Below, piece after piece: positions 20,693 to 40,743 of a DNA stretch of 64,000 nucleotides. The stretch is from a virus: the IMG/VR virus record IMGVR_UViG_3300007511_000003, positions 64,001-128,000 of that record; one strand, 5' to 3'. The number at the start of each line of letters is the position of its first letter. The first letter of the stretch is position 1. The position numbers and the translations under genes were made by a program. The notes under the pieces were generated by a model. It searched no databases. It was given only the letters and a program-made list of their open reading frames with translations, and had not been told where the DNA came from.

Positions 20693-21465
20693 TAGTAGTA
20701 CCCTAACAGTTTATGTTGTTGAGCAACCACCCGGATGTTATATCCTTGGTTCCAGTTCAGGATCATCTGGGTGATGCGTTGGAGTTCCTTAGTAGGAACA
20801 GGGCCCTTGGTGTTGTCAGCACAGGGCGTAAGGATGATTGGGTGTGACATAAAAGCGTGGTCTTGTAACAACCCACTGAAATGTTGTAATAACCAATCCA
20901 GGTCTTCTTGGTCTCGTACCACTGCCTTGGCATATACCTGGGGCATCTTCTCGATAACTTGGTAAAGGGCTGCCAGCACGTCGGCCCCCAATTCGACACC
21001 TGTATTTGGCGTCTTGATATCCAACGACACCTGATCAAAACAGTTAAAGGCTTGGCTGTCAATGATAGTACCGCTAGTCTCCAGGTTTGTTCGCAACCCT
21101 CGCCGTCGAAGTAAAGTCGAAAGGCGGGTTACTTGGGGGCGGTAGTGGAGAGGTTCGCCCCCTGTAATGGAAACCTCCACCACTTTACCTTTGACTATCT
21201 TTACCAATCGGTCCGCAAGCGAGGAGACCTCAGCCAAGGGGTGTTCTCCTACTGCCCAACTATCCTTGGTATCACAAGTAGTGCAGCCTACAGCACATCC
21301 GGATACACGGATAAATAGCCTGGGTACCCCTATGTTTATACCCTCCCCCTCCAAAGTCTCCTGGATTTCCATCACAGGGAGAACATCGTCGGGCACCTCA
21401 TGGATTCCCAGTTTCAAGAGGTTACACTTAAACTTGGGTACCACCACATTGATCGGCTTAATCAT
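20692..21465 (-). CDS. queE: 7-carboxy-7-deazaguanine synthase (radical SAM)
   Basis: ETLEGEG, FIRVSGCAVGCTTCDT, ITGGEP, LETSG, QQHK. Confidence 0.88.
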   Translation of the reverse strand: MIKPINVVVPKFKCNLLKLGIHEVPDDVLPVMEIQETLEGEGINIGVPRLFIRVSGCAVGCTTCDTKDSWAVGEHPLAEVSSLADRLVKIVKGKVVEVSITGGEPLHYRPQVTRLSTLLRRRGLRTNLETSGTIIDSQAFNCFDQVSLDIKTPNTGVELGADVLAALYQVIEKMPQVYAKAVVRDQEDLDWLLQHFSGLLQDHAFMSHPIILTPCADNTKGPVPTKELQRITQMILNWNQGYNIRVVAQQHKLLGYY

Positions 21466-23534
21466 CCTTCGACTCCTTCATAAAATTCAGTGTTCAGCGG
21501 GAAGTGTTCGTCCAACCAAGGTTGTATCCGTTTGCCTTCCGCACGAATCATTGCCATTGTCTCTTCTACATTTACATTGTAGCCAATTTCATCGCGTTGA
21601 CGTTCTAACGCCGACCGGATGTTGTGCAGGAGGTTTTTCTTGGTGTAATCCCACTTTTGCATGGCGTCCCCGGAAGCCCCTATGTCAAAGTCTACCGCTA
21701 GCCCTACGTTAAACTGGAAATGAAACGTCTCTGCCACTTTCTGCTCAACGCCGACTGTAGTACACCACTCCAGCAATCGGAGGACCAAAGGAATATACCG
21801 ATAGTTCACCTCCACTTCAACGCTGTCATGGACCATCATGGACGGGTAAAGGTTCGTTGGAACCCCTATCGACTGGAGTTCTTCCCCGTCAGGATCCAGC
21901 CCATATAAGTCCTGTAAGCTTTCCCACAGTTTTTCACTGTACAGGCGTGCAGCAAGGAATCCCAACTGGCTGGCGAATCCCTGAATAGGGCTGTTGGCCG
22001 CCCGTCGTTTCATGGCGGACACCAGACCAGGAACCTCTGTCATGTAAGCAAACAGGTTTCGCTTGAACCCCAGAGGGTTGTAGGTGTACAAACGGTCGGC
22101 ACTAAAATCGCATGTCCACTGGATCCAGTTGCCTGCCTTGAAAAACTTGGCAAAGAAACCGCCCTTCACCTTTTTCATCTCAGCTTCTGACTTTCCAGTG
22201 TCCCGAGCCAAAGACCTATCCGACTTACCATACATGGTCCCAAAGGTAATCACCTTTGAATCCTGCCGTTGTTCCTTTGTCACCTTCTCTACAGGTGTGC
22301 CAGTAAAGAACTGGTAGTTAAGTTTGTGGGGGTCGCCCTTCTCTTTTAAGTCGTCTCTGTGCCGAGCGGTCGGTTGCTGGCGGAACCGCAGACGGAGGTT
22401 GTGCACAACCTTAAACATCATGGCCAGCACGGCATCCTTGCTGATGATACCCCAACAACGCACCTCATGAGCGGCATAATCAAGCTTAATAACCAAACAA
22501 CCCACACGGGCAGTGAATGAACGTTTGATAAACTTGGCATCAGGACCGTGTTGGGGTGTTTGTTGGAGGCTTGGTTCTGAGCTATTACTGCGCCCTGTCA
22601 CAACATCCTTAAATCCATACTGCGGACGTAACCTGTGGTCCACCTTCCCGTCACGGGATTTACCAATCTTCTTGTAGAAGGCGTTGACATAGGATGTGAG
22701 CAACTTCTTGAGCTTGGACAAGGTGGTGAAGTCAGCCACCTCTGGATGTTCTTTGTACTTTTTCTGGAATGCGGCGTCTATTGAAGCGGCATCATCCTTA
22801 CCTGTTGACAGAGGTTCCAGCCCCATCACCTGGATAAACAACATCTGTTTGTGGGCGGCTTTATTGGGATCAAATACCCAAGCCTGGGTGTTACCAAATA
22901 TACCACCGCCTGGGGGAACCCCTTGTACTTCACACAACAATCGGTTGGCGGTCTGGACATGTTCTGACTCTCTCATCTGAGCCGCGAGTTCCTTCCGTTT
23001 GGCCAGCACTGGGGACCGTCGGCGGTCGCGGAGCAACAACAGGTATTCGATATCCAGATGGGCTCCTGTTTGTTCCATGCCACTCATCACATGGACAGTA
23101 TCCGACATCTGAGTAAGCAATAAGCGCCTATAAAACCTTCTGTAGTTGTGTTTACCTACCCGTTGGAGGGCCGCCCTTTCTTGCTGGAGTTCATGGACAC
23201 GGAAGCAAGCTTGAGTATCCATTGCACAATAGTCTAATACCTCGTCAGACAGGTCTCTGTTGGCTATGTCTTGACGGTCATCTTTAGAAAACCTGGCGTC
23301 ATAGTAAAAGGCGTTCCCATAGTAGGCCAATATTTGTGCCAACCCATAAGCTGGTGTACCGTACAGCATCAACACCTTCATGTTCTCGTCAAGGCAATTG
23401 TGAACCAAAACTGGTTTATCACTAATTTCATTACAAATAAATAGGTTGTGATTATCCTGTACCGTAACATCACATACCATAGGTGGGGAGTCAACCACCT
23501 TTACCGACTTAACTCTTACAGTTCGGGTAACCAT
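21462..23534 (-). CDS. polA: family A DNA polymerase, C-terminal part, starting with split-intein IntC
   Basis: TGRSNSSEPSLQQ, DYAAHEVR (motif A), RQDSKVITFGTMYG (B), NSPIQG, VHDS (C). Confidence 0.92.
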   Translation of the reverse strand: MVTRTVRVKSVKVVDSPPMVCDVTVQDNHNLFICNEISDKPVLVHNCLDENMKVLMLYGTPAYGLAQILAYYGNAFYYDARFSKDDRQDIANRDLSDEVLDYCAMDTQACFRVHELQQERAALQRVGKHNYRRFYRRLLLTQMSDTVHVMSGMEQTGAHLDIEYLLLLRDRRRSPVLAKRKELAAQMRESEHVQTANRLLCEVQGVPPGGGIFGNTQAWVFDPNKAAHKQMLFIQVMGLEPLSTGKDDAASIDAAFQKKYKEHPEVADFTTLSKLKKLLTSYVNAFYKKIGKSRDGKVDHRLRPQYGFKDVVTGRSNSSEPSLQQTPQHGPDAKFIKRSFTARVGCLVIKLDYAAHEVRCWGIISKDAVLAMMFKVVHNLRLRFRQQPTARHRDDLKEKGDPHKLNYQFFTGTPVEKVTKEQRQDSKVITFGTMYGKSDRSLARDTGKSEAEMKKVKGGFFAKFFKAGNWIQWTCDFSADRLYTYNPLGFKRNLFAYMTEVPGLVSAMKRRAANSPIQGFASQLGFLAARLYSEKLWESLQDLYGLDPDGEELQSIGVPTNLYPSMMVHDSVEVEVNYRYIPLVLRLLEWCTTVGVEQKVAETFHFQFNVGLAVDFDIGASGDAMQKWDYTKKNLLHNIRSALERQRDEIGYNVNVEETMAMIRAEGKRIQPWLDEHFPLNTEFYEGVEG
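23397..23534 (-). mobile_element. split intein C-half (46 aa)
   Basis: VCDVTVQDNHNL...VLVHN/C. Confidence 0.9.
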
Positions 23535-24593
23535 ATGAAGACCTCAGAAATACGTATGTTAGTGGAGCGGCGAGTGTTTGACCAAAAAATAAAGTTAACT
23601 CAAAAATTTGTACGAGACATGTCACCAAAACTCTTAGGATATTGCCAAAAGGAAGCTCTGCGAATTTATGGAGGTAAATACCCACCCTGGTGGGCTATTC
23701 TCTATAAAGTTATTTACAAGGACCACTATCGGTGCCGGTGTGGGTCCGAAAAACTAGCTTGGCAGGGTTGGGAAGGCGGTCTGGCGGAATACTGTTCCTG
23801 TAAATGTGCAGGGGCCTCTCCGGATGTTTTGAAAAAGAGGGAACATACTTGCCAACAAAAGTACGGTACTAAACATGTACAATCGGTACCTAGTATACGT
23901 GCTAAATTTAAACAGTCTATGGTACGAAACCAAGGAGTAGAATACACAGCCCAAAGCCCACGCTTAAAAAAGAAGATGCGTAAAACACTCAAAAAGAACC
24001 ATGGAGTCGAAGAAACTTTCCATTCCATGGTTCTTTATGGTAAAGCAAAGGCCACCATGTTACAGAAATATGGTGCTGAGCATAACCAACAGGTCCCCCA
24101 CCTGTTTGAACAACAACAAAGGTCAGGTTTTAAAATACGTACCATAAAAGTTAATGGGAAACGGTTTAGGGTACGTGGAGGGGAAGGTCATGCTATAAAA
24201 TACCTTGTCCACGAACTTGGGTGTTCTATAGACGAAATTTACACGACGGCGGTACAAGGTAAGCCATCCATCCCTTGGTATGACAATAAAAACAAGTACC
24301 ACATATATCACCCTGACATCTATGCCAAAGTTAAAGGGCGATGGTTTATTATTGAAGTCAAAAGCACGTATACAGCGGGTATAACCACCAAGTCTGGGGC
24401 TGAGTTTTACCGGCTACGTATGAAGGCAAAGGGTGTGGAAGAGGCCGGTTACAATTTCAGGACACTCCTTGTCCATTATGGACGGTCCCTCCCTCTTGAC
24501 TACCGTCCACTTGTTATTAAAGACATACACCAAAAGACCAGAAAACAGGTTAGGTCTGAAGTAAAACTTCATCGTCAGAGGTTAGGTTCTTAG
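23535..24593 (+). CDS. free-standing PD-(D/E)xK homing endonuclease-like protein
   Basis: YCSCKC, repeated KYG..H..Q units, YHPDIY...IIEVKS; likely start ATG 23535. Confidence 0.8.
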   Translation: MKTSEIRMLVERRVFDQKIKLTQKFVRDMSPKLLGYCQKEALRIYGGKYPPWWAILYKVIYKDHYRCRCGSEKLAWQGWEGGLAEYCSCKCAGASPDVLKKREHTCQQKYGTKHVQSVPSIRAKFKQSMVRNQGVEYTAQSPRLKKKMRKTLKKNHGVEETFHSMVLYGKAKATMLQKYGAEHNQQVPHLFEQQQRSGFKIRTIKVNGKRFRVRGGEGHAIKYLVHELGCSIDEIYTTAVQGKPSIPWYDNKNKYHIYHPDIYAKVKGRWFIIEVKSTYTAGITTKSGAEFYRLRMKAKGVEEAGYNFRTLLVHYGRSLPLDYRPLVIKDIHQKTRKQVRSEVKLHRQRLGS

Positions 24594-24846
24594 CTTTTAC
24601 ATAGGAACCTCGGGTAACCGACCAAACCTCATGGTCTTCAGTAACGCGAATGGATCCCCCTTCATAGGATATTTCCACCATTCGTTGGTCTGTTGGGTGG
24701 GTAGAAGTAGCTAAAAGTGGTTTATATTCTTCCTGTTGTGTTTTATGGTTATATGATAAAACCTGAGGAGGATTCCCCATAACCACCAAGTCTTTCATTT
24801 GTACCATACCACGTTCCGTTACCACCCAAGACTCTGGGTGTATACA
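24550..24846 (-). mobile_element. split intein N-half (98 aa)
   Basis: CIHPESWV block A; IRVTEDHEV block B TxxH; ends at a stop. Confidence 0.9.
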
Positions 24847-25944
24847 GAACTCACCGGCAATGGTGTCCCAAACAGGCCAATAAATGAATGGGAGATCGAA
24901 CTCCTGACGTATAATACGAAGGTCAAATTTGGCGTTGTGCATAACCAAATAACGAGGGGATTTAGGCTGCCATTCCACTCGTTGCCCAAAGTAGGCACGT
25001 AGTTCCTTAAATATTGTGCGGAACTCTGATCCTGAGAATGGGGTATCACGATGGTGTACAGGGAGGATAAAAGCCCTGTCGGGATTGTCTGAGAATTGGA
25101 GGGTCTGGAGTTGGTTATGATGAACGGACAGGTTCTTGGTCTCTGAGTCAACGGAAACCACGGGAGCCCGTTTAATGACCCTCATCATACGCTTAAACTT
25201 GCTCAACGTATCGATGAGGATTGGATTTGGCCGCACCTCGGAGGCCGTAAATGGGAGTCGGTCCAAAAACGCCGACATGAGAGTGCGTCCGATATATCCA
25301 AGAATATTGGCCTGGGTGATGGCTTCATCCATCTTTGTCTGACTCTCGGCATCGGAGTCATTGTCCATGTCGGTACCACGCAAAAAATAGGTGTGGTCGT
25401 ACCGTATGGTGTTGGTGACCAGGACAGGCTTCCCTCGCACTTTGATAGCATGGGGCCAACCCCTTTTATGTGAAATGTCATCCACCCGGGGTAACAGGGA
25501 TTCTGCCGCTTCATCCCCAAATACTATCACGTTCGTCGGATCCATCTTGCGAACAAACGCCTTTACTCGCTTAGAAGCAGCATCATTGGCGTGCTTACGT
25601 CGGGCACCTTTGAGGTGGTAGGTCTTGAAGAAATTGAAGTTGATGGTGGCATAAGCCACCGATTCCTCAATGGATTCTGGGTTGACAAGAGCACATTGTC
25701 GGCGGGCAAATTGTAGGAGGTTCGTGACAACGGTGGCGCCGGTTCCTCGATCCAATAACGCCTTTTCCTTGAGGTCTTTACCATCCACATGTTCTACCAC
25801 CAGAATAACACGGCGCCTGGCGGTCTTCCAGTTTTTCGTTATAGGGATAGCTACGTCAAATGCGGGGCATTCCTTTGGGCTCCAACCCTCTGGAAGATCG
25901 TTTTGGAAAGTCACATAACGCATCTGCCGGCGGTCTGTTATCAC
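24550..25944 (-). CDS. polA: family A DNA polymerase, N-terminal part (UDG-like + 3'-5' exonuclease) ending in split-intein IntN
   Basis: VDSET (ExoI), HNAKFD (ExoII), then GEF/CIHPESWVVTERG. Confidence 0.88.
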   Translation of the reverse strand: MITDRRQMRYVTFQNDLPEGWSPKECPAFDVAIPITKNWKTARRRVILVVEHVDGKDLKEKALLDRGTGATVVTNLLQFARRQCALVNPESIEESVAYATINFNFFKTYHLKGARRKHANDAASKRVKAFVRKMDPTNVIVFGDEAAESLLPRVDDISHKRGWPHAIKVRGKPVLVTNTIRYDHTYFLRGTDMDNDSDAESQTKMDEAITQANILGYIGRTLMSAFLDRLPFTASEVRPNPILIDTLSKFKRMMRVIKRAPVVSVDSETKNLSVHHNQLQTLQFSDNPDRAFILPVHHRDTPFSGSEFRTIFKELRAYFGQRVEWQPKSPRYLVMHNAKFDLRIIRQEFDLPFIYWPVWDTIAGEFCIHPESWVVTERGMVQMKDLVVMGNPPQVLSYNHKTQQEEYKPLLATSTHPTDQRMVEISYEGGSIRVTEDHEVWSVTRGSYVKAKNLTSDDEVLLQT

Positions 25945-35937: not shown

Positions 35938-36234
35938 TCACTCCATCTTGAAAAGTTTTTGAAAGTTGGCTACTTCCAGTATTCTACGGACGCCAGGACG
36001 TGCGTGACGTAATACTACACGCTTGGGTCCTAGCTTTTCGTTGGCTATTAACAGAATACCAAGGGCAGCACTATCAATGTACCTGGCATGTCTTAGGTCA
36101 ACCACAAGATTCTGGTCGGGTTTAACCTGGTCCATAGCCTTCCGAAACATACCATGACATTCAAATTGGAAGGTACTGGGTGGTACAAACACCACTTCCT
36201 TACTATCCGAGTGTATTTTGCACTCCTGTTCCAC
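35938..36234 (-). CDS. STAS-domain anti-sigma-factor antagonist
   Basis: VVDLRHARYIDSAALGILL...VRRILEVANFQKLF. Confidence 0.88.
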   Translation of the reverse strand: MEQECKIHSDSKEVVFVPPSTFQFECHGMFRKAMDQVKPDQNLVVDLRHARYIDSAALGILLIANEKLGPKRVVLRHARPGVRRILEVANFQKLFKME

Positions 36235-36938
36235 TATGATACTCCACTTGCGAAGTCTATTGCCATCTGCTTCGCGTCATCCATCGTTTCCGCCTGCCAC
36301 TCCCCACGCCCTCTGTTAAACTGCTCAACATGGTCTGTATAGATGACCTGACTTTCATCACCTTTTGGCCAAATTTCATAGGATACATGGATGTTTACAC
36401 TGTCACCGTCCTCGTGGAGAGTGATCTCTTTGTTCTGGTACATGTCATCTGAGTACCATGCCTCAACGTCCTCGAGGAATTCCTGTGGGTCGGAAGGGTG
36501 AAAAGCACAATCACCTTTCTTGACTTTGGAGCCGACTCCAAACCCATACATGGCGCGGTGACTCCACCCATACCACTTTTGTTTGGCCTCACAGTATCCA
36601 ACAGAGCAGACATTGTGGTCGGGTGCTGACAGTTCGGGTACGATTCCTCGTTTTGCCAAAGAGGCAGCGAACTCGGGATCCCCTATATAATCCCCATCTA
36701 GGTTGTATGCACTCTTCATCTCCAGCGGCTTATTGGAACCCGACTCTCCAGGCGGAATCTCTTCGGTCCTCACTTGGTAAGTAGGGAACGTCTGTATGCT
36801 TAGGACCTTTCGCAAACTCGACAAGGAGAGCCGGGCTAGGGCCTGAAACCTCAGGCCCTTGCTAGGCACCATGGCACAAACTTGGCCGCGGTGTATTACT
36901 GGAATACGTGGAAGCAGGACAACCCGTAGGGATTTCAT
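36234..36938 (-). CDS. conserved phage protein
   Basis: WYGWSHRAMYGFGVG...AKQMAIDFASGVS. Confidence 0.65.
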   Translation of the reverse strand: MKSLRVVLLPRIPVIHRGQVCAMVPSKGLRFQALARLSLSSLRKVLSIQTFPTYQVRTEEIPPGESGSNKPLEMKSAYNLDGDYIGDPEFAASLAKRGIVPELSAPDHNVCSVGYCEAKQKWYGWSHRAMYGFGVGSKVKKGDCAFHPSDPQEFLEDVEAWYSDDMYQNKEITLHEDGDSVNIHVSYEIWPKGDESQVIYTDHVEQFNRGRGEWQAETMDDAKQMAIDFASGVS

Positions 36939-37761: not shown

Positions 37762-38730
37762 TCATTTTTCTAGGTTGAACGTCTCAACCAGCTCTTCCCT
37801 AGTCATGATCTTGATGCCAAGGTTAACCGCTTTCCGCTCCTTGGAACTGCCAGTACCTTTAAGTTTCATCACCAGGACTGTCACTTTCCTGGAGATGCCG
37901 CTGGCGATAGTACCGCCCTCACGTTCGATTTGTTCTTGTAAGTCTTTATCCCTGAAGCCGGTAAACACCACAATCTCACCCGACATCTTGTCACCCTCTG
38001 GAGGAGCCACAGGACCTAGTGTTTCAATGGTAATCAGGCGTTTGATGGGTTTTACGAAGGCCTGGAATTTGGGAAATCCTTGGGCAAACTGCTTGGCACG
38101 CTTACTGCTGAACCCAGATACAGACAGGGCCATATGCTCCAAGTCCCGAGGGTTAGGTCTGTTAAGATCCATGATCTGCGGGTATTTCTCAACCAGTGGT
38201 GTTAACTGCCGTACACCAAAGCCAGGACCGAATACCCCAGAAGCCGCCATCAATACGGGCAGAGACACTGGATTCAAAGCTTTCTTAATCCCGGTGACGA
38301 TGGTGGTGGCCGTTTTATCCTGGATGCCAGGAACCGCCATCAAGTCTTTTTTCGTGGCTCGGATAACGGCTTCGATGGAGTCGATTCCATGAGTAGCCAA
38401 CCGTTGGATTGTACCTTGAGCAAAGTTTTCGACTTCAATGGCCTTAAAAAACCAAGCAATTTGTTTTACCAACTGTTCGTCGGTGTCCCCCGTGGCGCGT
38501 ATATCGACACCAGAGGAAGTCCATTCAAAGTTACCGTCTTCCGGTAATCCTGCCTTGCGGCTAGGAGCAACAACCTCCAAAATATGCGGGATAACATCTC
38601 CACTCCTTGTAATCTTGAGGACCGCACCAGGCCCTACCTTGTTGTCGTTGATGAACTTGGCATTGAAACCAGTTACCCGACGGATAGTTACCCCTCCCAA
38701 TCTAACACCAGGACGTACACTTTTAGCCAT
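37762..38730 (-). CDS. ligA: NAD+-dependent DNA ligase, C-terminal part (rest of OB, HhH, BRCT)
   Basis: LGGVTIRRVTGFNA, RSGDVIP, VPGIQDKTA, VVFTGFR; own AAGGGG RBS. Confidence 0.88.
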   Translation of the reverse strand: MAKSVRPGVRLGGVTIRRVTGFNAKFINDNKVGPGAVLKITRSGDVIPHILEVVAPSRKAGLPEDGNFEWTSSGVDIRATGDTDEQLVKQIAWFFKAIEVENFAQGTIQRLATHGIDSIEAVIRATKKDLMAVPGIQDKTATTIVTGIKKALNPVSLPVLMAASGVFGPGFGVRQLTPLVEKYPQIMDLNRPNPRDLEHMALSVSGFSSKRAKQFAQGFPKFQAFVKPIKRLITIETLGPVAPPEGDKMSGEIVVFTGFRDKDLQEQIEREGGTIASGISRKVTVLVMKLKGTGSSKERKAVNLGIKIMTREELVETFNLEK

Positions 38731-39760
38731 GGTGTATCCCCTTTAAAATCTGAGTGCGTGTCTTCCGATACCAACCTCGTGGCAAAACTATGCGTTTGGG
38801 GGAGCCGTTATCATTTTGCATAACCAAAAGTCGAAAGATAAAACCATCCTTCATTGTCTGTCGGGCTTTAGCACACAAAATGTGCCATAAACGGTCAGGG
38901 GAGCTTTTATGTAATCTATGGTTTGTTAATCCTGCCGTGTGTAAAGACTTTACTTCTATAAGTATGTTACGGTCCGGGAGGAACAAATCGGGGTAGTACC
39001 TACGGTTCTTTCCGTCAAGTTGGTAATATACAACCGGCACTTCGCGGTCACTAAATACTCGGATCCTTGAAGGATCCACCCCTTTTTTGTGGAGTAACCA
39101 ATCCAATGCTAGGTCTTCATATCCTTGTACCTGAACGACCCGGGAACCTAACGTATAAGAATGATAAAATCTTGTGCTGGAACAAGCATTACATGCCAAG
39201 CCTCGTTTAGCCAACACGGAAGAAGGGCGGGCCGTAAATAAGGCACCGCAAGAAAGGCATTTATGTTCTATTGGAACACTAATACCCTTATACACTCCTA
39301 TAGGCTGTAGGGCTTTACCTAATTTCTCCAACCTCTCACCGTATCTCTCTGTGGTATGTAGGCCATGTTTTGACGGGTTGCATGATCGACAACCAACACC
39401 ACGTTTAACAGCCTCTGTGGTATACCAATCCTGGGTATTACAAAACTTACATTGATACAGGTTTTTGGCATTCTTCAACCGACGATAACCTTCCATAACA
39501 TAAAAGGAAGAGTTACGGATTTCTGTCATATGGTTGCACATCGAATGGAAATTCTGCAACCTATCAGAGCAGGCAGGGCAGTTAAGGAACCCGTTTTTCG
39601 TGGTCCTGGGTTTAGTTATAAACCCATTACCGCAGATCTTACAATAATGGCTACAAGGTACGTGAACACCGGAATACCCGGAAAGGTACCCTACCAAAGT
39701 AGAATCCAAGGATTTAATATACTCTTGTTCTCTTACCTCGAGAGATTTAGACATACCCAT
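38723..39760 (-). CDS. free-standing PD-(D/E)xK homing endonuclease-like protein with Zn ribbons
   Basis: Several CxxC pairs; VQGYE, YYPDLF...LIEVKS. Confidence 0.8.
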   Translation of the reverse strand: MGMSKSLEVREQEYIKSLDSTLVGYLSGYSGVHVPCSHYCKICGNGFITKPRTTKNGFLNCPACSDRLQNFHSMCNHMTEIRNSSFYVMEGYRRLKNAKNLYQCKFCNTQDWYTTEAVKRGVGCRSCNPSKHGLHTTERYGERLEKLGKALQPIGVYKGISVPIEHKCLSCGALFTARPSSVLAKRGLACNACSSTRFYHSYTLGSRVVQVQGYEDLALDWLLHKKGVDPSRIRVFSDREVPVVYYQLDGKNRRYYPDLFLPDRNILIEVKSLHTAGLTNHRLHKSSPDRLWHILCAKARQTMKDGFIFRLLVMQNDNGSPKRIVLPRGWYRKTRTQILKGIHHG

Positions 39761-40743
39761 TACATCGGTTCCACTATGACAGTAGGTTTCAAAATACCAT
39801 GCTTAGACACGTTCCATTCTACACTCACCACCCTACATTTCACTATCTGATCCTCCATCAACATCTTGAAGGCTACGCTGTACCGAGGGTTGCCAGATGT
39901 GGCGCGTTTGTATATTGAGTCCTGTGTGACCACCAGACCGTCTATGGCAAACTTAGAGCTCTTCCGCCTCGCAATGAGTCTGTCAGAGAGTGTCTGGGCG
40001 TCCAGGACCTTATAGGCCTTGGCAGGAGCGACCGTGAATCCAAGCTGGTGTTTCAGGTAGTTGAGCTGTTCGGAGGGTTTCTTGCGTGGAACGATGAGTT
40101 CGTAGCACACCAAGGTGGCGTCTTTGAGGGCAGGGCTGACATCCGGGCGGTTGACCAACCCACCCATGAAATTCCGTGGGTTTGCGAAGTCCTTGGCGTA
40201 CTTCTTGAACGCCGTCTCGGACATGATGATCTCGGCCCGTACCGCGAAGGTGTCCTGTGTCTTGGGAAGCCCAAGAATTGGCACCATGGACGTTACATCC
40301 TGTCCGACCTTACCGTTACCTCGGGTAAACAGTTGGTACCGGCCCTTGGTACAGATGATAAGCATTGAGATGCCGTCCATCTTGTCCGACACCACGTAGG
40401 GCCCTGGGTTGGCGTCAAACCAACGGTCAAGGTCTGGAGTGTTGGGTTTGATCTTGTCGAGGGAACCCATCCAATAGGGCAGTTTTTGTTTCTTACCCTG
40501 ATCGACAGGAGCGCCTACTTTTTGGAGCAAAGGGCTGTCAGGGAACCTCTGGCGGAACGTATCCTCAATCGCGTCAAACTCGGCGTCTGACAAGAAAGGG
40601 CTTCCCTTGTAGTACGTGTTCTTGGCCCGGCGGTATAACTGACGTAGCAGCCGAGCGGACAACTTTGAGGCATAACCTCCAGGGTCTGCCTTTAGGGCTG
40701 TCAAATCGAACTCATACGCTGCCACTTCCCTCAACCTTTTCAT
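39760..40743 (-). CDS. ligA: NAD+-dependent DNA ligase, N-terminal part (adenylation domain)
   Basis: YY...SDAEFD, MGSLDK, KMDG, TRGNG, NPRN, IDGLVV, VAFK. Confidence 0.92.
   Translation of the reverse strand: MKRLREVAAYEFDLTALKADPGGYASKLSARLLRQLYRRAKNTYYKGSPFLSDAEFDAIEDTFRQRFPDSPLLQKVGAPVDQGKKQKLPYWMGSLDKIKPNTPDLDRWFDANPGPYVVSDKMDGISMLIICTKGRYQLFTRGNGKVGQDVTSMVPILGLPKTQDTFAVRAEIIMSETAFKKYAKDFANPRNFMGGLVNRPDVSPALKDATLVCYELIVPRKKPSEQLNYLKHQLGFTVAPAKAYKVLDAQTLSDRLIARRKSSKFAIDGLVVTQDSIYKRATSGNPRYSVAFKMLMEDQIVKCRVVSVEWNVSKHGILKPTVIVEPM

What the first reader, a model, noticed from the sequence alone, without database searches (positions are those of the whole stretch)
37762..40743. NAD+ DNA ligase fractured by an endonuclease gene with no visible intein or intron
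Seen: the ligase stops at ...KPTVIVEPM within the OB fold and resumes as MAKSVRPG-VRLGGVTIRR from its own AAGGGG RBS. The gap is filled entirely by a 345-aa nuclease ORF overlapping both halves (TAATG overlap and 8-nt overlap). There are no Hint motifs and no non-coding room for an intron core. Known precedent: phage Aeh1 nrdA split by mobE works as separate polypeptides. Inference: a two-chain ligase that reassembles its OB barrel non-covalently.
Basis: partly seen in the sequence, partly recalled or inferred. Interest (0 to 1): 0.8.

Follow-up and report, generated by a model that had tools for sequence, protein, structure and literature searches.

The report
Phage DNA ligase split by endonuclease
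An uncultured large phage encodes its NAD-dependent DNA ligase as two separate genes, cut in the middle of one folded domain by a selfish nuclease gene with no intron or intein to rejoin them, and the same cut recurs in many environmental phage ligases, so the enzyme probably works as two chains.

Summary
Three minus-strand ORFs lie head to tail:
- ligase N piece, 39760-40743
- a 345-aa nuclease, 38723-39760
- ligase C piece, 37762-38730

They overlap by TAATG and by ATGGCTAA. The same layout recurs at 99.9% identity in three other assemblies.

**No splicing element.** The break lies between Pro326 and the Val that follows, near the end of strand β2 of the OB fold. Nothing is missing. The only extras are a Met on the N piece and MAKSVRPG on the C piece. 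There is no room for an intein or an intron core, and Rfam finds nothing.

**The insert.** It is a DUF7487 nuclease with a PD-(D/E)XK motif and a Vsr/TnsA-like fold. Its GC content is low. A paralogue sits inside a split-intein DNA polymerase in the same genome.

**Relatives.** The nearest relative (65% identical) has an intact 639-aa ligase. Fourteen of the 150 best cluster representatives end exactly at this site, and at least three contigs carry an unrelated insert there. One origin is rejected (AU p 1.6e-94). Both pieces keep all 51 conserved family positions.

**Verdict.** A homing-type endonuclease fractured the ligase, which most likely works as a non-covalent two-chain enzyme. This is a new variant of known kinds (Aeh1 NrdA/mobE; T5 LigA/LigB). 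Earlier scan notes describe split phage ligases, with T5 LigA/LigB as closest known; several give the OB/zinc-finger boundary and none mentions a break inside the OB fold.

The parts
39760..40743 (-). ligN: N-terminal ligase piece (327 aa). Holds the domain Ia-like motif, the adenylation domain with K121-M-D-G, and OB-fold strand beta1 plus most of beta2. Ends ...KPTVIVEP + Met + TAA.
   Evidence: Pfam PF01653 E 7e-17. Aligns to T. filiformis LigA up to residue 344/347. 65% identical over 1-327 to the intact 639-aa relative P0111. All 15 invariant and 23 near-invariant family columns that fall in it are kept.
38723..39760 (-). Free-standing nuclease gene (345 aa, DUF7487 family). Has three CxxC...CxxC zinc-ribbon modules, then a PD-(D/E)XK domain with invariant E215, D258, E269-V-K271. 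Candidate homing endonuclease.
   Evidence: Pfam DUF7487 E 6e-14 with weak treble-clef hits. PHROG endonuclease families. Invariant columns in A3/A5. AF2 model pLDDT 77.6. VIA-align gives Vsr 1cw0 Z 8.6 and TnsA 1t0f Z 7.8 over residues about 195-337. GC is 43.5% against 49-53% in the ligase pieces.
37762..38730 (-). ligC: C-terminal ligase piece (322 aa). Has an 8-aa tail MAKSVRPG, then the last residues of OB strand beta2, the GG turn, beta3-beta5, the HhH domain and BRCT. There is no zinc finger.
   Evidence: Pfam OB 26-76/79, HHH_5 and BRCT. Val9 aligns to residue 344 of 1dgs. 66% identical to residues 327-639 of intact P0111. All 4 invariant and 9 near-invariant columns are kept.
39758..39765 (-). 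Upstream junction ATGTAATG: an added Met codon, the ligN stop, and the overlapping nuclease start.
   Evidence: Sequence. Intact relatives read ...EP|V... with no Met here.
38707..38743 (-). Downstream junction inside the 3' end of the nuclease ORF: AAGGGG Shine-Dalgarno (38738-38743), the ligC ATG (38728-38730), the nuclease stop TAA (38723-38725), and the tail codons MAKSVRPG (38707-38730) that have no counterpart in intact ligases.
   Evidence: Sequence. In 80 intact IMG/VR relatives the codon matching ligN residue 327 and the one matching ligC residue 9 are the same codon.

Best explanation
A mobile, free-standing PD-(D/E)XK endonuclease gene (DUF7487 family, Vsr/TnsA-like fold, zinc-ribbon DNA-binding modules) inserted into the phage's NAD+-dependent DNA ligase gene. 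The insertion point is exactly between the codons for Pro326 and the next Val, near the end of strand beta2 of the OB fold. The insert supplies a Met codon and a stop for the upstream piece. Inside its own 3' end it supplies a Shine-Dalgarno sequence, an ATG and an 8-codon tail for the downstream piece. The three ORFs overlap, which suggests translational coupling (inferred). No RNA or protein splicing takes place. ligN (domain Ia, adenylation domain, beta1-beta2) and ligC (beta3-beta5, HhH, BRCT) are made as separate chains. They rebuild the OB barrel by strand complementation and form an active two-chain ligase. Shown: the anatomy, the absence of an intein or intron, the intact allele in the nearest relative, recurrence of the split at this site, and full conservation of both pieces. 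Inferred: homing activity of the nuclease, assembly of the two chains, and activity of the complex.
For: Anatomy. Seamless joint: ligN Met327 and ligC Val9 both map to residue 344 of 1dgs, and in 80 intact relatives the two matches abut in frame. No intron: Rfam empty at E<=10, and the nuclease aligns with its paralogues across almost the whole gap. No intein: tails are 1 and 8 aa with no Hint hit. Polymorphism of presence and absence: the nearest relative P0111 is an uninterrupted 639-aa ligase, 65% and 66% identical to the two pieces. Recurrence: 14 of the 150 best 50%-cluster representatives stop within -1 to +13 residues of this site. The nearest C pieces start there with short tails. L008, L011 and the P0128 and P0002 contigs carry both halves side by side. 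One origin is rejected: at least 11 changes on the tree, AU p 1.6e-94. Selection: all 51 invariant or near-invariant columns of 62 intact relatives are kept. Structure: in the AF2 model of P0111 (pLDDT 90.9) beta2 is 317-329 and beta3 is 332-338, so the break at 326|327 lies 3-4 residues before the GG hairpin turn. Nuclease mobility: low GC; paralogues between the split-intein halves of polA and in an intergenic spot of the same genome; a family member in the gap of a T5-type split ligase in another phage. Precedent for a two-chain NAD+ ligase: T5 LigA/LigB and PDB 9HU3/9I5I. Same layout in other assemblies.
Against: There is no direct evidence that the chains associate or that the complex seals nicks. 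No multimer model could be run. The break is inside a domain, which is harder to tolerate than the T5 break at a domain boundary. Unlike Aeh1 NrdA, whose added tails are essential, the tails here are tiny (1 and 8 aa), so nothing obvious promotes assembly. dN/dS could not be computed: the close copies differ by only 1-6 nt, and no DNA was available for the 65% relative. Cleavage by the nuclease is untested. Only about 65% of the phage genome is on record, so a second ligase cannot be excluded, although none is in the 169 kb held.
Confidence: 0.75

Rival explanations
1. The ligase gene was simply killed by the endonuclease insertion. The two ORFs are young remnants, and the phage relies on the host LigA or on another ligase in the unsequenced third of its genome.
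For: The break is inside a folded domain. Only about 65% of the genome is on record. No functional data exist. The nearest relative is intact, so the insertion could be recent in this lineage.
Against: Both ORFs are full length and keep 51 of 51 conserved family positions. The two halves are equally similar to the intact relative, at 65% and 66%. The downstream piece has its own strong SD and ATG. The same split, with both halves intact and adjacent, is seen in ligases only 37-46% identical to this one. Within this phage's own subclade, split forms outnumber intact ones 6 to 2. Decayed remnants would not look like this.
Confidence: 0.12
2. The two pieces are rejoined covalently, by an unrecognised intron, an unusual mini-intein, or translational bypassing of the nuclease ORF.
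For: The same genome uses split inteins for polA and dnaX. The total insertion is 1059 nt, a multiple of three (and coordinates).
Against: No Rfam hit at E<=10. No significant RNA structure at either junction, z +1.3 and +0.5. Protein-coding homology fills the gap to within about 30 nt. Tails of 1 and 8 aa cannot form a Hint fold, and the residue after the joint would be Val, not Cys, Ser or Thr. The nuclease is in a different frame from ligN. A 1-kb ribosomal hop has no precedent.
Confidence: 0.03
3. The pieces are both expressed but no longer form one ligase. For example, ligN acts alone as an adenylyltransferase, or ligC acts alone as a BRCT/HhH DNA-binding factor.
For: In T5-type enzymes the catalytic and clamp modules are separate chains, so modular use is conceivable.
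Against: Each piece carries an incomplete OB barrel, two strands against three, which is unlikely to be stable alone. OB residues stay conserved on both sides of the break. The halves are always adjacent and co-oriented wherever the contig is long enough.
Confidence: 0.07

Closest known systems
Aeromonas phage Aeh1 NrdA-a/NrdA-b split by the free-standing endonuclease gene mobE (Friedrich 2007; Crona et al. 2011, PMC3045599)
   Same: A free-standing homing-type endonuclease gene sits inside an essential DNA-metabolism gene. There is no intron or intein. The two halves are translated separately, and short extra tails were created by the insertion.
   Different: The host gene, nuclease family and break site all differ: a ligase and a PD-(D/E)XK DUF7487 nuclease here, against RNR and a GIY-YIG nuclease there. 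The tails are minimal here (1 and 8 aa), while the Aeh1 tails are essential interaction elements. The break is inside a small beta-barrel. Activity is shown for Aeh1 and not here.
Two-subunit NAD+-dependent DNA ligase of T5-like phages (ligA/ligB, AY692264 57309-59262) and its solved relative, PDB 9HU3/9I5I
   Same: A phage NAD+ ligase made of two separately encoded chains. A DUF7487-family nuclease can sit in that gap in other phages (L086).
   Different: T5 LigA holds the whole OB fold (Pfam positions 2-71 of 79), and LigB starts at the zinc finger, about residue 400 of 1dgs. Here the cut is about 56 residues earlier, inside the OB fold (residue 344 of 1dgs), and this clade has no zinc finger.
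Fractured genes of Dassa et al. 2009 (PMC2677866), including the intein-less SbcD-like locus and one ligase with a split intein
   Same: A phage replication or repair gene is broken by a free-standing endonuclease gene that brings its own expression signals. An intein-less case is described there (SbcD-like). The same phage here has classic fractured polA and dnaX genes.
   Different: Their ligase locus has a split intein, and this one has none. Their new nuclease family is the Vsr-type EDxHD lineage, while this nuclease has a canonical E...D...ExK site.
PD-(D/E)XK-fold homing endonucleases: I-Bth0305I (EDxHD family, 3R3P) and I-Ssp6803I (2OST)
   Same: A restriction-endonuclease-like catalytic fold (VIA-align Z 5.9 and 4.2; the best hits are Vsr at 8.6 and TnsA at 7.8), combined with separate DNA-binding modules.
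   Different: There is no conserved catalytic His and no EDxHD motif. The DNA-binding part is made of zinc ribbons rather than NUMOD/HTH modules. The gene is free-standing rather than intron-encoded.

Membership tests
NAD+-dependent DNA ligase (LigA family) | Adenylation domain with the KxDG lysine and motifs III-V | tested here: met
   PF01653 E 7e-17. K121-M-D-G, R169/E171, D268-G, and K293 are all kept.
NAD+-dependent DNA ligase (LigA family) | N-terminal domain Ia that confers NAD+ specificity | tested here: inconclusive
   The stretch YY..SPFLSDAEFD aligns with domain Ia of 1v9p, and Y44, D53 and D57 are conserved. No Pfam Nlig-Ia hit was found for this protein, though a weak one is on record for the relative on L011.
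NAD+-dependent DNA ligase (LigA family) | OB fold, HhH and BRCT domains following the adenylation domain | tested here: met
   The first strands of the OB fold are in ligN. OB positions 26-76 of 79, HHH_5 and BRCT are in ligC.
NAD+-dependent DNA ligase (LigA family) | Cys4 zinc finger between the OB fold and HhH | tested here: not met
   No PF03119 hit, and there are no cysteines between the OB fold and HhH in ligC or in intact P0111. This is a property of the whole clade, not of the split.
Split-intein fractured gene (Dassa 2009) | An N-intein (about 100 aa) at the end of the upstream piece and a C-intein (about 35-45 aa) at the start of the downstream piece | tested here: not met
   The extra residues are 1 and 8 aa. 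No Hint family is found. By contrast polA and dnaX in this genome show both parts.
Group I or group II intron with an endonuclease ORF | A structured RNA core flanking or enclosing the ORF | tested here: not met
   No Rfam match at E<=10. Coding homology covers nuclease residues about 10-345, leaving under 30 nt. Junction folds are no better than shuffles.
Intein-less gene fractured by a free-standing endonuclease (Aeh1 nrdA/mobE type) | A nuclease ORF lies between two collinear halves that together equal an intact homologue, each half with its own start or stop | tested here: met
Intein-less gene fractured by a free-standing endonuclease (Aeh1 nrdA/mobE type) | The separate polypeptides assemble into an active enzyme | not testable with these tools
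   Only indirect support is available: conservation and recurrence.
T5-type LigA/LigB two-subunit ligase | The break lies at the boundary between the OB fold and the zinc finger | tested here: not met
   T5 LigA carries OB positions 2-71 of 79, and LigB starts at about residue 400 of 1dgs. Here the break is at residue 344 of 1dgs, inside beta2.
PD-(D/E)XK nuclease superfamily / Pfam DUF7487 | A restriction-endonuclease-like fold with acidic residues and a Lys in an E...(P)D...(D/E)xK arrangement | tested here: met
   DUF7487 E 6e-14, above the cut-off. E215, D258, E269 and K271 are invariant in 7 sequences. Vsr Z 8.6 and TnsA Z 7.8 with 105-122 aligned residues. The Foldseek pdb search alone was not significant.
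EDxHD (Vsr-like) homing endonuclease family, I-Bth0305I | The composite motif E-D-x-H-D, with a conserved catalytic His | tested here: not met
   No invariant His occurs in the catalytic domain. The motif is as defined in PMC3239194. The fold is only moderately similar (3r3p Z 5.9).
Homing endonuclease (functional class) | Presence or absence at one precise site among related genomes, plus other copies in typical homing contexts | tested here: met
   The intact allele is seen in P0111. A paralogue lies between the split-intein halves of polA. A family member sits in a T5-type ligase gap. GC is low.
Homing endonuclease (functional class) | Site-specific cleavage of the insert-free allele | not testable with these tools
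   This needs an in vitro cleavage assay.

The most novel reading that the evidence does not exclude
The Pro|Val position near the end of OB-fold strand beta2 is a recurrent landing or safe-harbour site in environmental phage NAD+ ligases. At least two unrelated mobile gene families use it. The ligase tolerates the cut because the five-stranded OB barrel re-forms from a two-strand and a three-strand fragment without any intein or interaction tails. That would be a natural case of intradomain fold complementation and an intein-independent route by which homing endonucleases create multi-subunit enzymes. In the same genome, split inteins solve the same problem for polA and dnaX.
Probability: 0.55. 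Interest if true: 0.7.

Novelty: new variant of a known kind. Interest (0 to 1): 0.6.

Why it matters
Genes fractured by endonucleases without an intein are known from only a few cases, chiefly Aeh1 NrdA, phage 25 gp43 and one SbcD-like locus. The known two-chain NAD+ ligase, the T5 type, is cut at a domain boundary.

Here the cut runs through a small beta-barrel, with almost no added sequence. It recurs across many diverged ligases, and at least two unrelated inserts occupy the site.

If the two chains do assemble, three things follow:
- It is a natural example of fragment complementation of an OB fold.
- It is a ready-made pair for engineering a split ligase.
- It gives a direct comparison, within one genome, of intein-dependent and intein-independent ways of surviving an endonuclease invasion.

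It also points to DUF7487 as an uncharacterised family of candidate homing endonucleases in large phages.

Tried and rejected
- **Intron search.** The Rfam scan at E<=10 gave only a chance lncRNA hit. RNA folds of both junctions are no better than shuffles.
- **Flanking repeats.** No direct or inverted repeats flank the insert.
- **Promoters and terminators.** The scan found fewer promoter-like sites than expected by chance and is not informative.
- **Close relatives in IMG/VR.** Searching with ligN found none. Searching with the C-piece alignment returned 80 loci, all intact, so split alleles are a minority there.
- **Cultured phages.** Every listed phage hit that appears in both the ligN and the ligC table has the two matches abutting or within about 30 nt, consistent with an unsplit gene. 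The second insert family has no match in that collection.
- **L009 (TARA scaffold).** It has Ns exactly at the junction and was set aside.
- **Missing DNA.** P0118 is not on record. No DNA was available for the P0002, P0111 and P0128 contigs, so no dN/dS and no comparison of flanking DNA with the closest intact allele was possible.
- **Nuclease fold.** Foldseek against the PDB gave nothing significant. VIA-align was needed. Sequence search against the PDB found nothing.
- **Second insert family.** An HNH assignment for the L008/L011 insert is not confirmed. Pfam finds nothing in its C-terminal part, and PHROGs gives only endonuclease VII at E about 0.02.
- **Literature.** Searches found no description of a ligase split at this site. 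The library does not cover everything.
- **Single origin.** The idea that all split forms descend from one event was rejected by the AU test.
Full report
**Observation.** The window is bases 64001-128000 of a 168.9-kb IMG/VR virus record estimated to be 65% complete. Its ligase is most like those of jumbo phages: Vibrio GR11A at 39%, the Pseudomonas putida jumbo phages, and PaBG. Three ORFs abut on the minus strand.
- ligN is 39760..40743 (327 aa) and ends ...KPTVIVEPM-TAA.
- A 345-aa ORF is 38723..39760, and its ATG shares the last A of that TAA.
- ligC is 37762..38730 (322 aa), begins MAKSVRPGVRLGGVTIRR, and overlaps the stop of the middle ORF by 8 nt. An AAGGGG lies 7 nt upstream of its ATG.

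Pfam puts the adenylation domain in ligN. It puts OB-fold positions 26-76 of 79, HhH and BRCT in ligC, and DUF7487 with weak zinc-ribbon hits in the middle ORF. Contigs from three other assemblies (ENA, Logan, JGI) match this stretch at 99.93-99.97% nucleotide identity; one carries the complete three-ORF layout and the other two carry parts of it, so the layout is not an assembly artefact. No other ligase domain occurs in the 169 kb on record.

**Nothing is missing and nothing can splice.**
- Against T. filiformis LigA, the last residue of ligN and Val9 of ligC fall on the same position, residue 344 of 1dgs.
- The nearest relative in a library of 1.8 billion protein representatives is P0111, an uninterrupted 639-aa ligase. 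It is 65% identical to ligN and 66% identical to ligC, and it reads ...VVVNP-I-RLGGVTIRR across the site.
- In 80 intact relatives from IMG/VR, the matches to the two pieces abut in frame and share one codon. The joined flanks of the window...GAA CCG | GTT AGA TTG GGA GGG..., reproduce the family consensus E-P-V-K/R-L-G-G.
- The insertion therefore lies exactly between Pro326 and the next Val. It added a Met and a stop on one side and MAKSVRPG on the other.
- Tails of 1 and 8 residues cannot hold a split intein, and no Hint family is found.
- Rfam at E<=10 finds no intron, and the junctions fold no better than shuffled sequence.
- The middle ORF is homologous to its paralogues from about residue 10 to its end, leaving under 30 nt for any RNA core.
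- No repeats flank the insert.

**The insert.**
- The three paralogues in this genome and four database relatives share invariant E215, D258 and E269-V-K271, a canonical PD-(D/E)XK signature. Three CxxC...CxxC modules precede the catalytic domain.
- The AF2 model (pLDDT 77.6) gave no significant Foldseek match. VIA-align places residues about 195-337 nearest to Vsr (1cw0, Z 8.6, 122 aligned) and TnsA (1t0f, Z 7.8). I-Bth0305I scores 5.9, with Hjc and I-Ssp6803I lower.
- It lacks the conserved His of the EDxHD family defined around I-Bth0305I, so I do not file it there.
- Several features fit a homing endonuclease. Its GC is 43.5% against 49-53% in the ligase pieces. One paralogue lies, on the opposite strand, between the two pieces of the phage's DNA polymerase A, whose ends carry split-intein parts. 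Another paralogue is intergenic. A family member occupies the gap of a T5-type split ligase in a 405-kb phage. Cleavage activity itself is untested.

**Recurrence of the cut.**
- Of the 150 best representatives matching ligN, 14 stop within -1 to +13 residues of this site, while other truncations are scattered.
- The nearest relatives of ligC (37-44% identical) start at the same place with short tails.
- Wherever contigs are long enough, both halves are adjacent and co-oriented. L008 has a 336-aa piece, a 385-aa insert and a 313-aa piece. L011 has 327 aa, a 373-aa insert and the C piece. The P0128 contig has 347, 313 and 314 aa. The P0002 contig has 437 aa, a 384-nt gap and 319 aa.
- The inserts in L008 and L011 are 31% identical to each other, and the start of a similar-looking ORF follows ligN on L010 (similarity judged by eye). 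I found no resemblance between this family and DUF7487 (compared by eye and by family hits, no direct alignment). They carry HTH repeats and a C-terminal motif that is only weakly like endonuclease VII or HNH.
- On a tree of the N-terminal region, the split state needs at least 11 changes, and well-supported branches force at least five. All split forms lie in one half of the tree. This phage is sister to intact P0111 (support 100), inside a subclade with six split and two intact members.
- A tree that forces the split forms together is rejected (delta lnL 524, AU p 1.6e-94).
- So the cut has been gained or lost many times, as expected for a homing site. Whether that reflects repeated invasions, or one old split with turnover of inserts and occasional repair, is open. 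The C-piece tails next to both insert families end in Gly, which hints at some shared ancestry and remains unexplained.

**Is the two-piece ligase functional?**
- All 19 invariant and 32 near-invariant columns of 62 intact relatives are kept in the two pieces. These include the KxDG lysine, the motif III, IV and V residues, and the RSGDVIP segment of the OB fold.
- In the confident AF2 model of P0111 (pLDDT 90.9), the OB strands are beta1 300-312, beta2 317-329, beta3 332-338, beta4 355-359 and beta5 367-373. The cut at 326|327 is therefore three to four residues before the GG turn of the beta2-beta3 hairpin.
- ligN contributes a long two-strand hairpin and ligC contributes the other three strands. 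Assembly would need beta-sheet complementation. This step is inference, because no multimer prediction or assay was available.
- Two-chain NAD+ ligases do exist. T5 ligA/ligB are annotated as subunits, and a homologous pair is solved as PDB 9HU3/9I5I. That cut lies after the whole OB fold, about 56 residues downstream of this one.

**Comparison with what is known.**
- The mechanism matches the intein-less fractured genes: Aeh1 nrdA/mobE, where the pieces assemble and the tails are essential (PMC3045599), and the SbcD-like locus of Dassa et al.
- Dassa et al. also describe a ligase, but with a split intein (PMC2677866).
- Four things are new here: the site inside the OB fold, the near absence of tails, the recurrence with at least two insert families, and the DUF7487 nuclease as the agent.
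- Literature searches found no description of a ligase split at this site.
- Earlier notes of this scan record split phage ligases in other genomes, with T5 LigA/LigB as closest known. Several give the OB/zinc-finger boundary and none mentions a break inside the OB fold. They also record the fractured polA and dnaX of this genome, which I re-read myself.

**Verdict.** It is a new variant of a known kind. I put the probability that the ligase works as a non-covalent two-chain enzyme at about 0.75, and the main rival, a recently inactivated gene, at about 0.12.

Noticed in passing
window 21462-25944 (- strand), with 23448-24593 (+ strand): DNA polymerase A is encoded in two ORFs with split-intein ends (...AGEF|CIHPESWVV... 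and ...VLVHN|CLDENMK). A 381-aa DUF7487 paralogue lies on the opposite strand between them. This is a classic fractured gene in the sense of Dassa 2009.
   Followed up: partly
G000:C1:26729-28553 (L013 230-910 and 1137-2054), outside the window: A DnaX-like clamp-loader gene is in two ORFs with split-intein ends (FILDE|CFPPD... and ...VLVSN|CHQLTPQ), separated by 226 nt. It is the third fractured replication gene in this phage.
   Followed up: partly
window 36234-36938 (- strand): A 234-aa ORF matches Pfam Tad6 (Type I Thoeris inhibitor) at E 1.7e-48, making it a candidate anti-defence gene about 0.8 kb downstream of ligC.
   Followed up: partly
L086 1164-4207 (IMG/VR 3300027899_000001) and L084: A T5-type split ligase: a 383-aa LigA-like piece with the whole OB fold, then a 324-aa DUF7487 nuclease, then a 267-aa LigB-like piece with the zinc finger. 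A second DUF7487 paralogue lies downstream on the other strand. So the same nuclease family sits at a different ligase break in another phage.
   Followed up: partly
L002 1477-2775 (G000:C1:37044-38342): A third DUF7487 paralogue (432 aa, four treble-clef repeats plus CapR-like repeats) stands free between two oppositely oriented genes.
   Followed up: partly
contig of P0128 (Logan SRR27007078; gene table only): Five ORFs of 313 aa each surround and interrupt a ligase that is split at the same site inside the OB fold. This looks like a locally amplified mobile gene family.
   Followed up: no
A1 alignment; L008 5001; L011 about 2050-2080: The N-terminal tails of C pieces next to unrelated inserts all end in Gly just before [VI][RK]L, where intact ligases have Pro. 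The reason is unknown.
   Followed up: no
hits P0132, P0140, P0145, P0151, P0240 and others: Many relatives of 900-1600 aa carry the ligase module in their C-terminal part, fused to large unidentified N-terminal regions.
   Followed up: no
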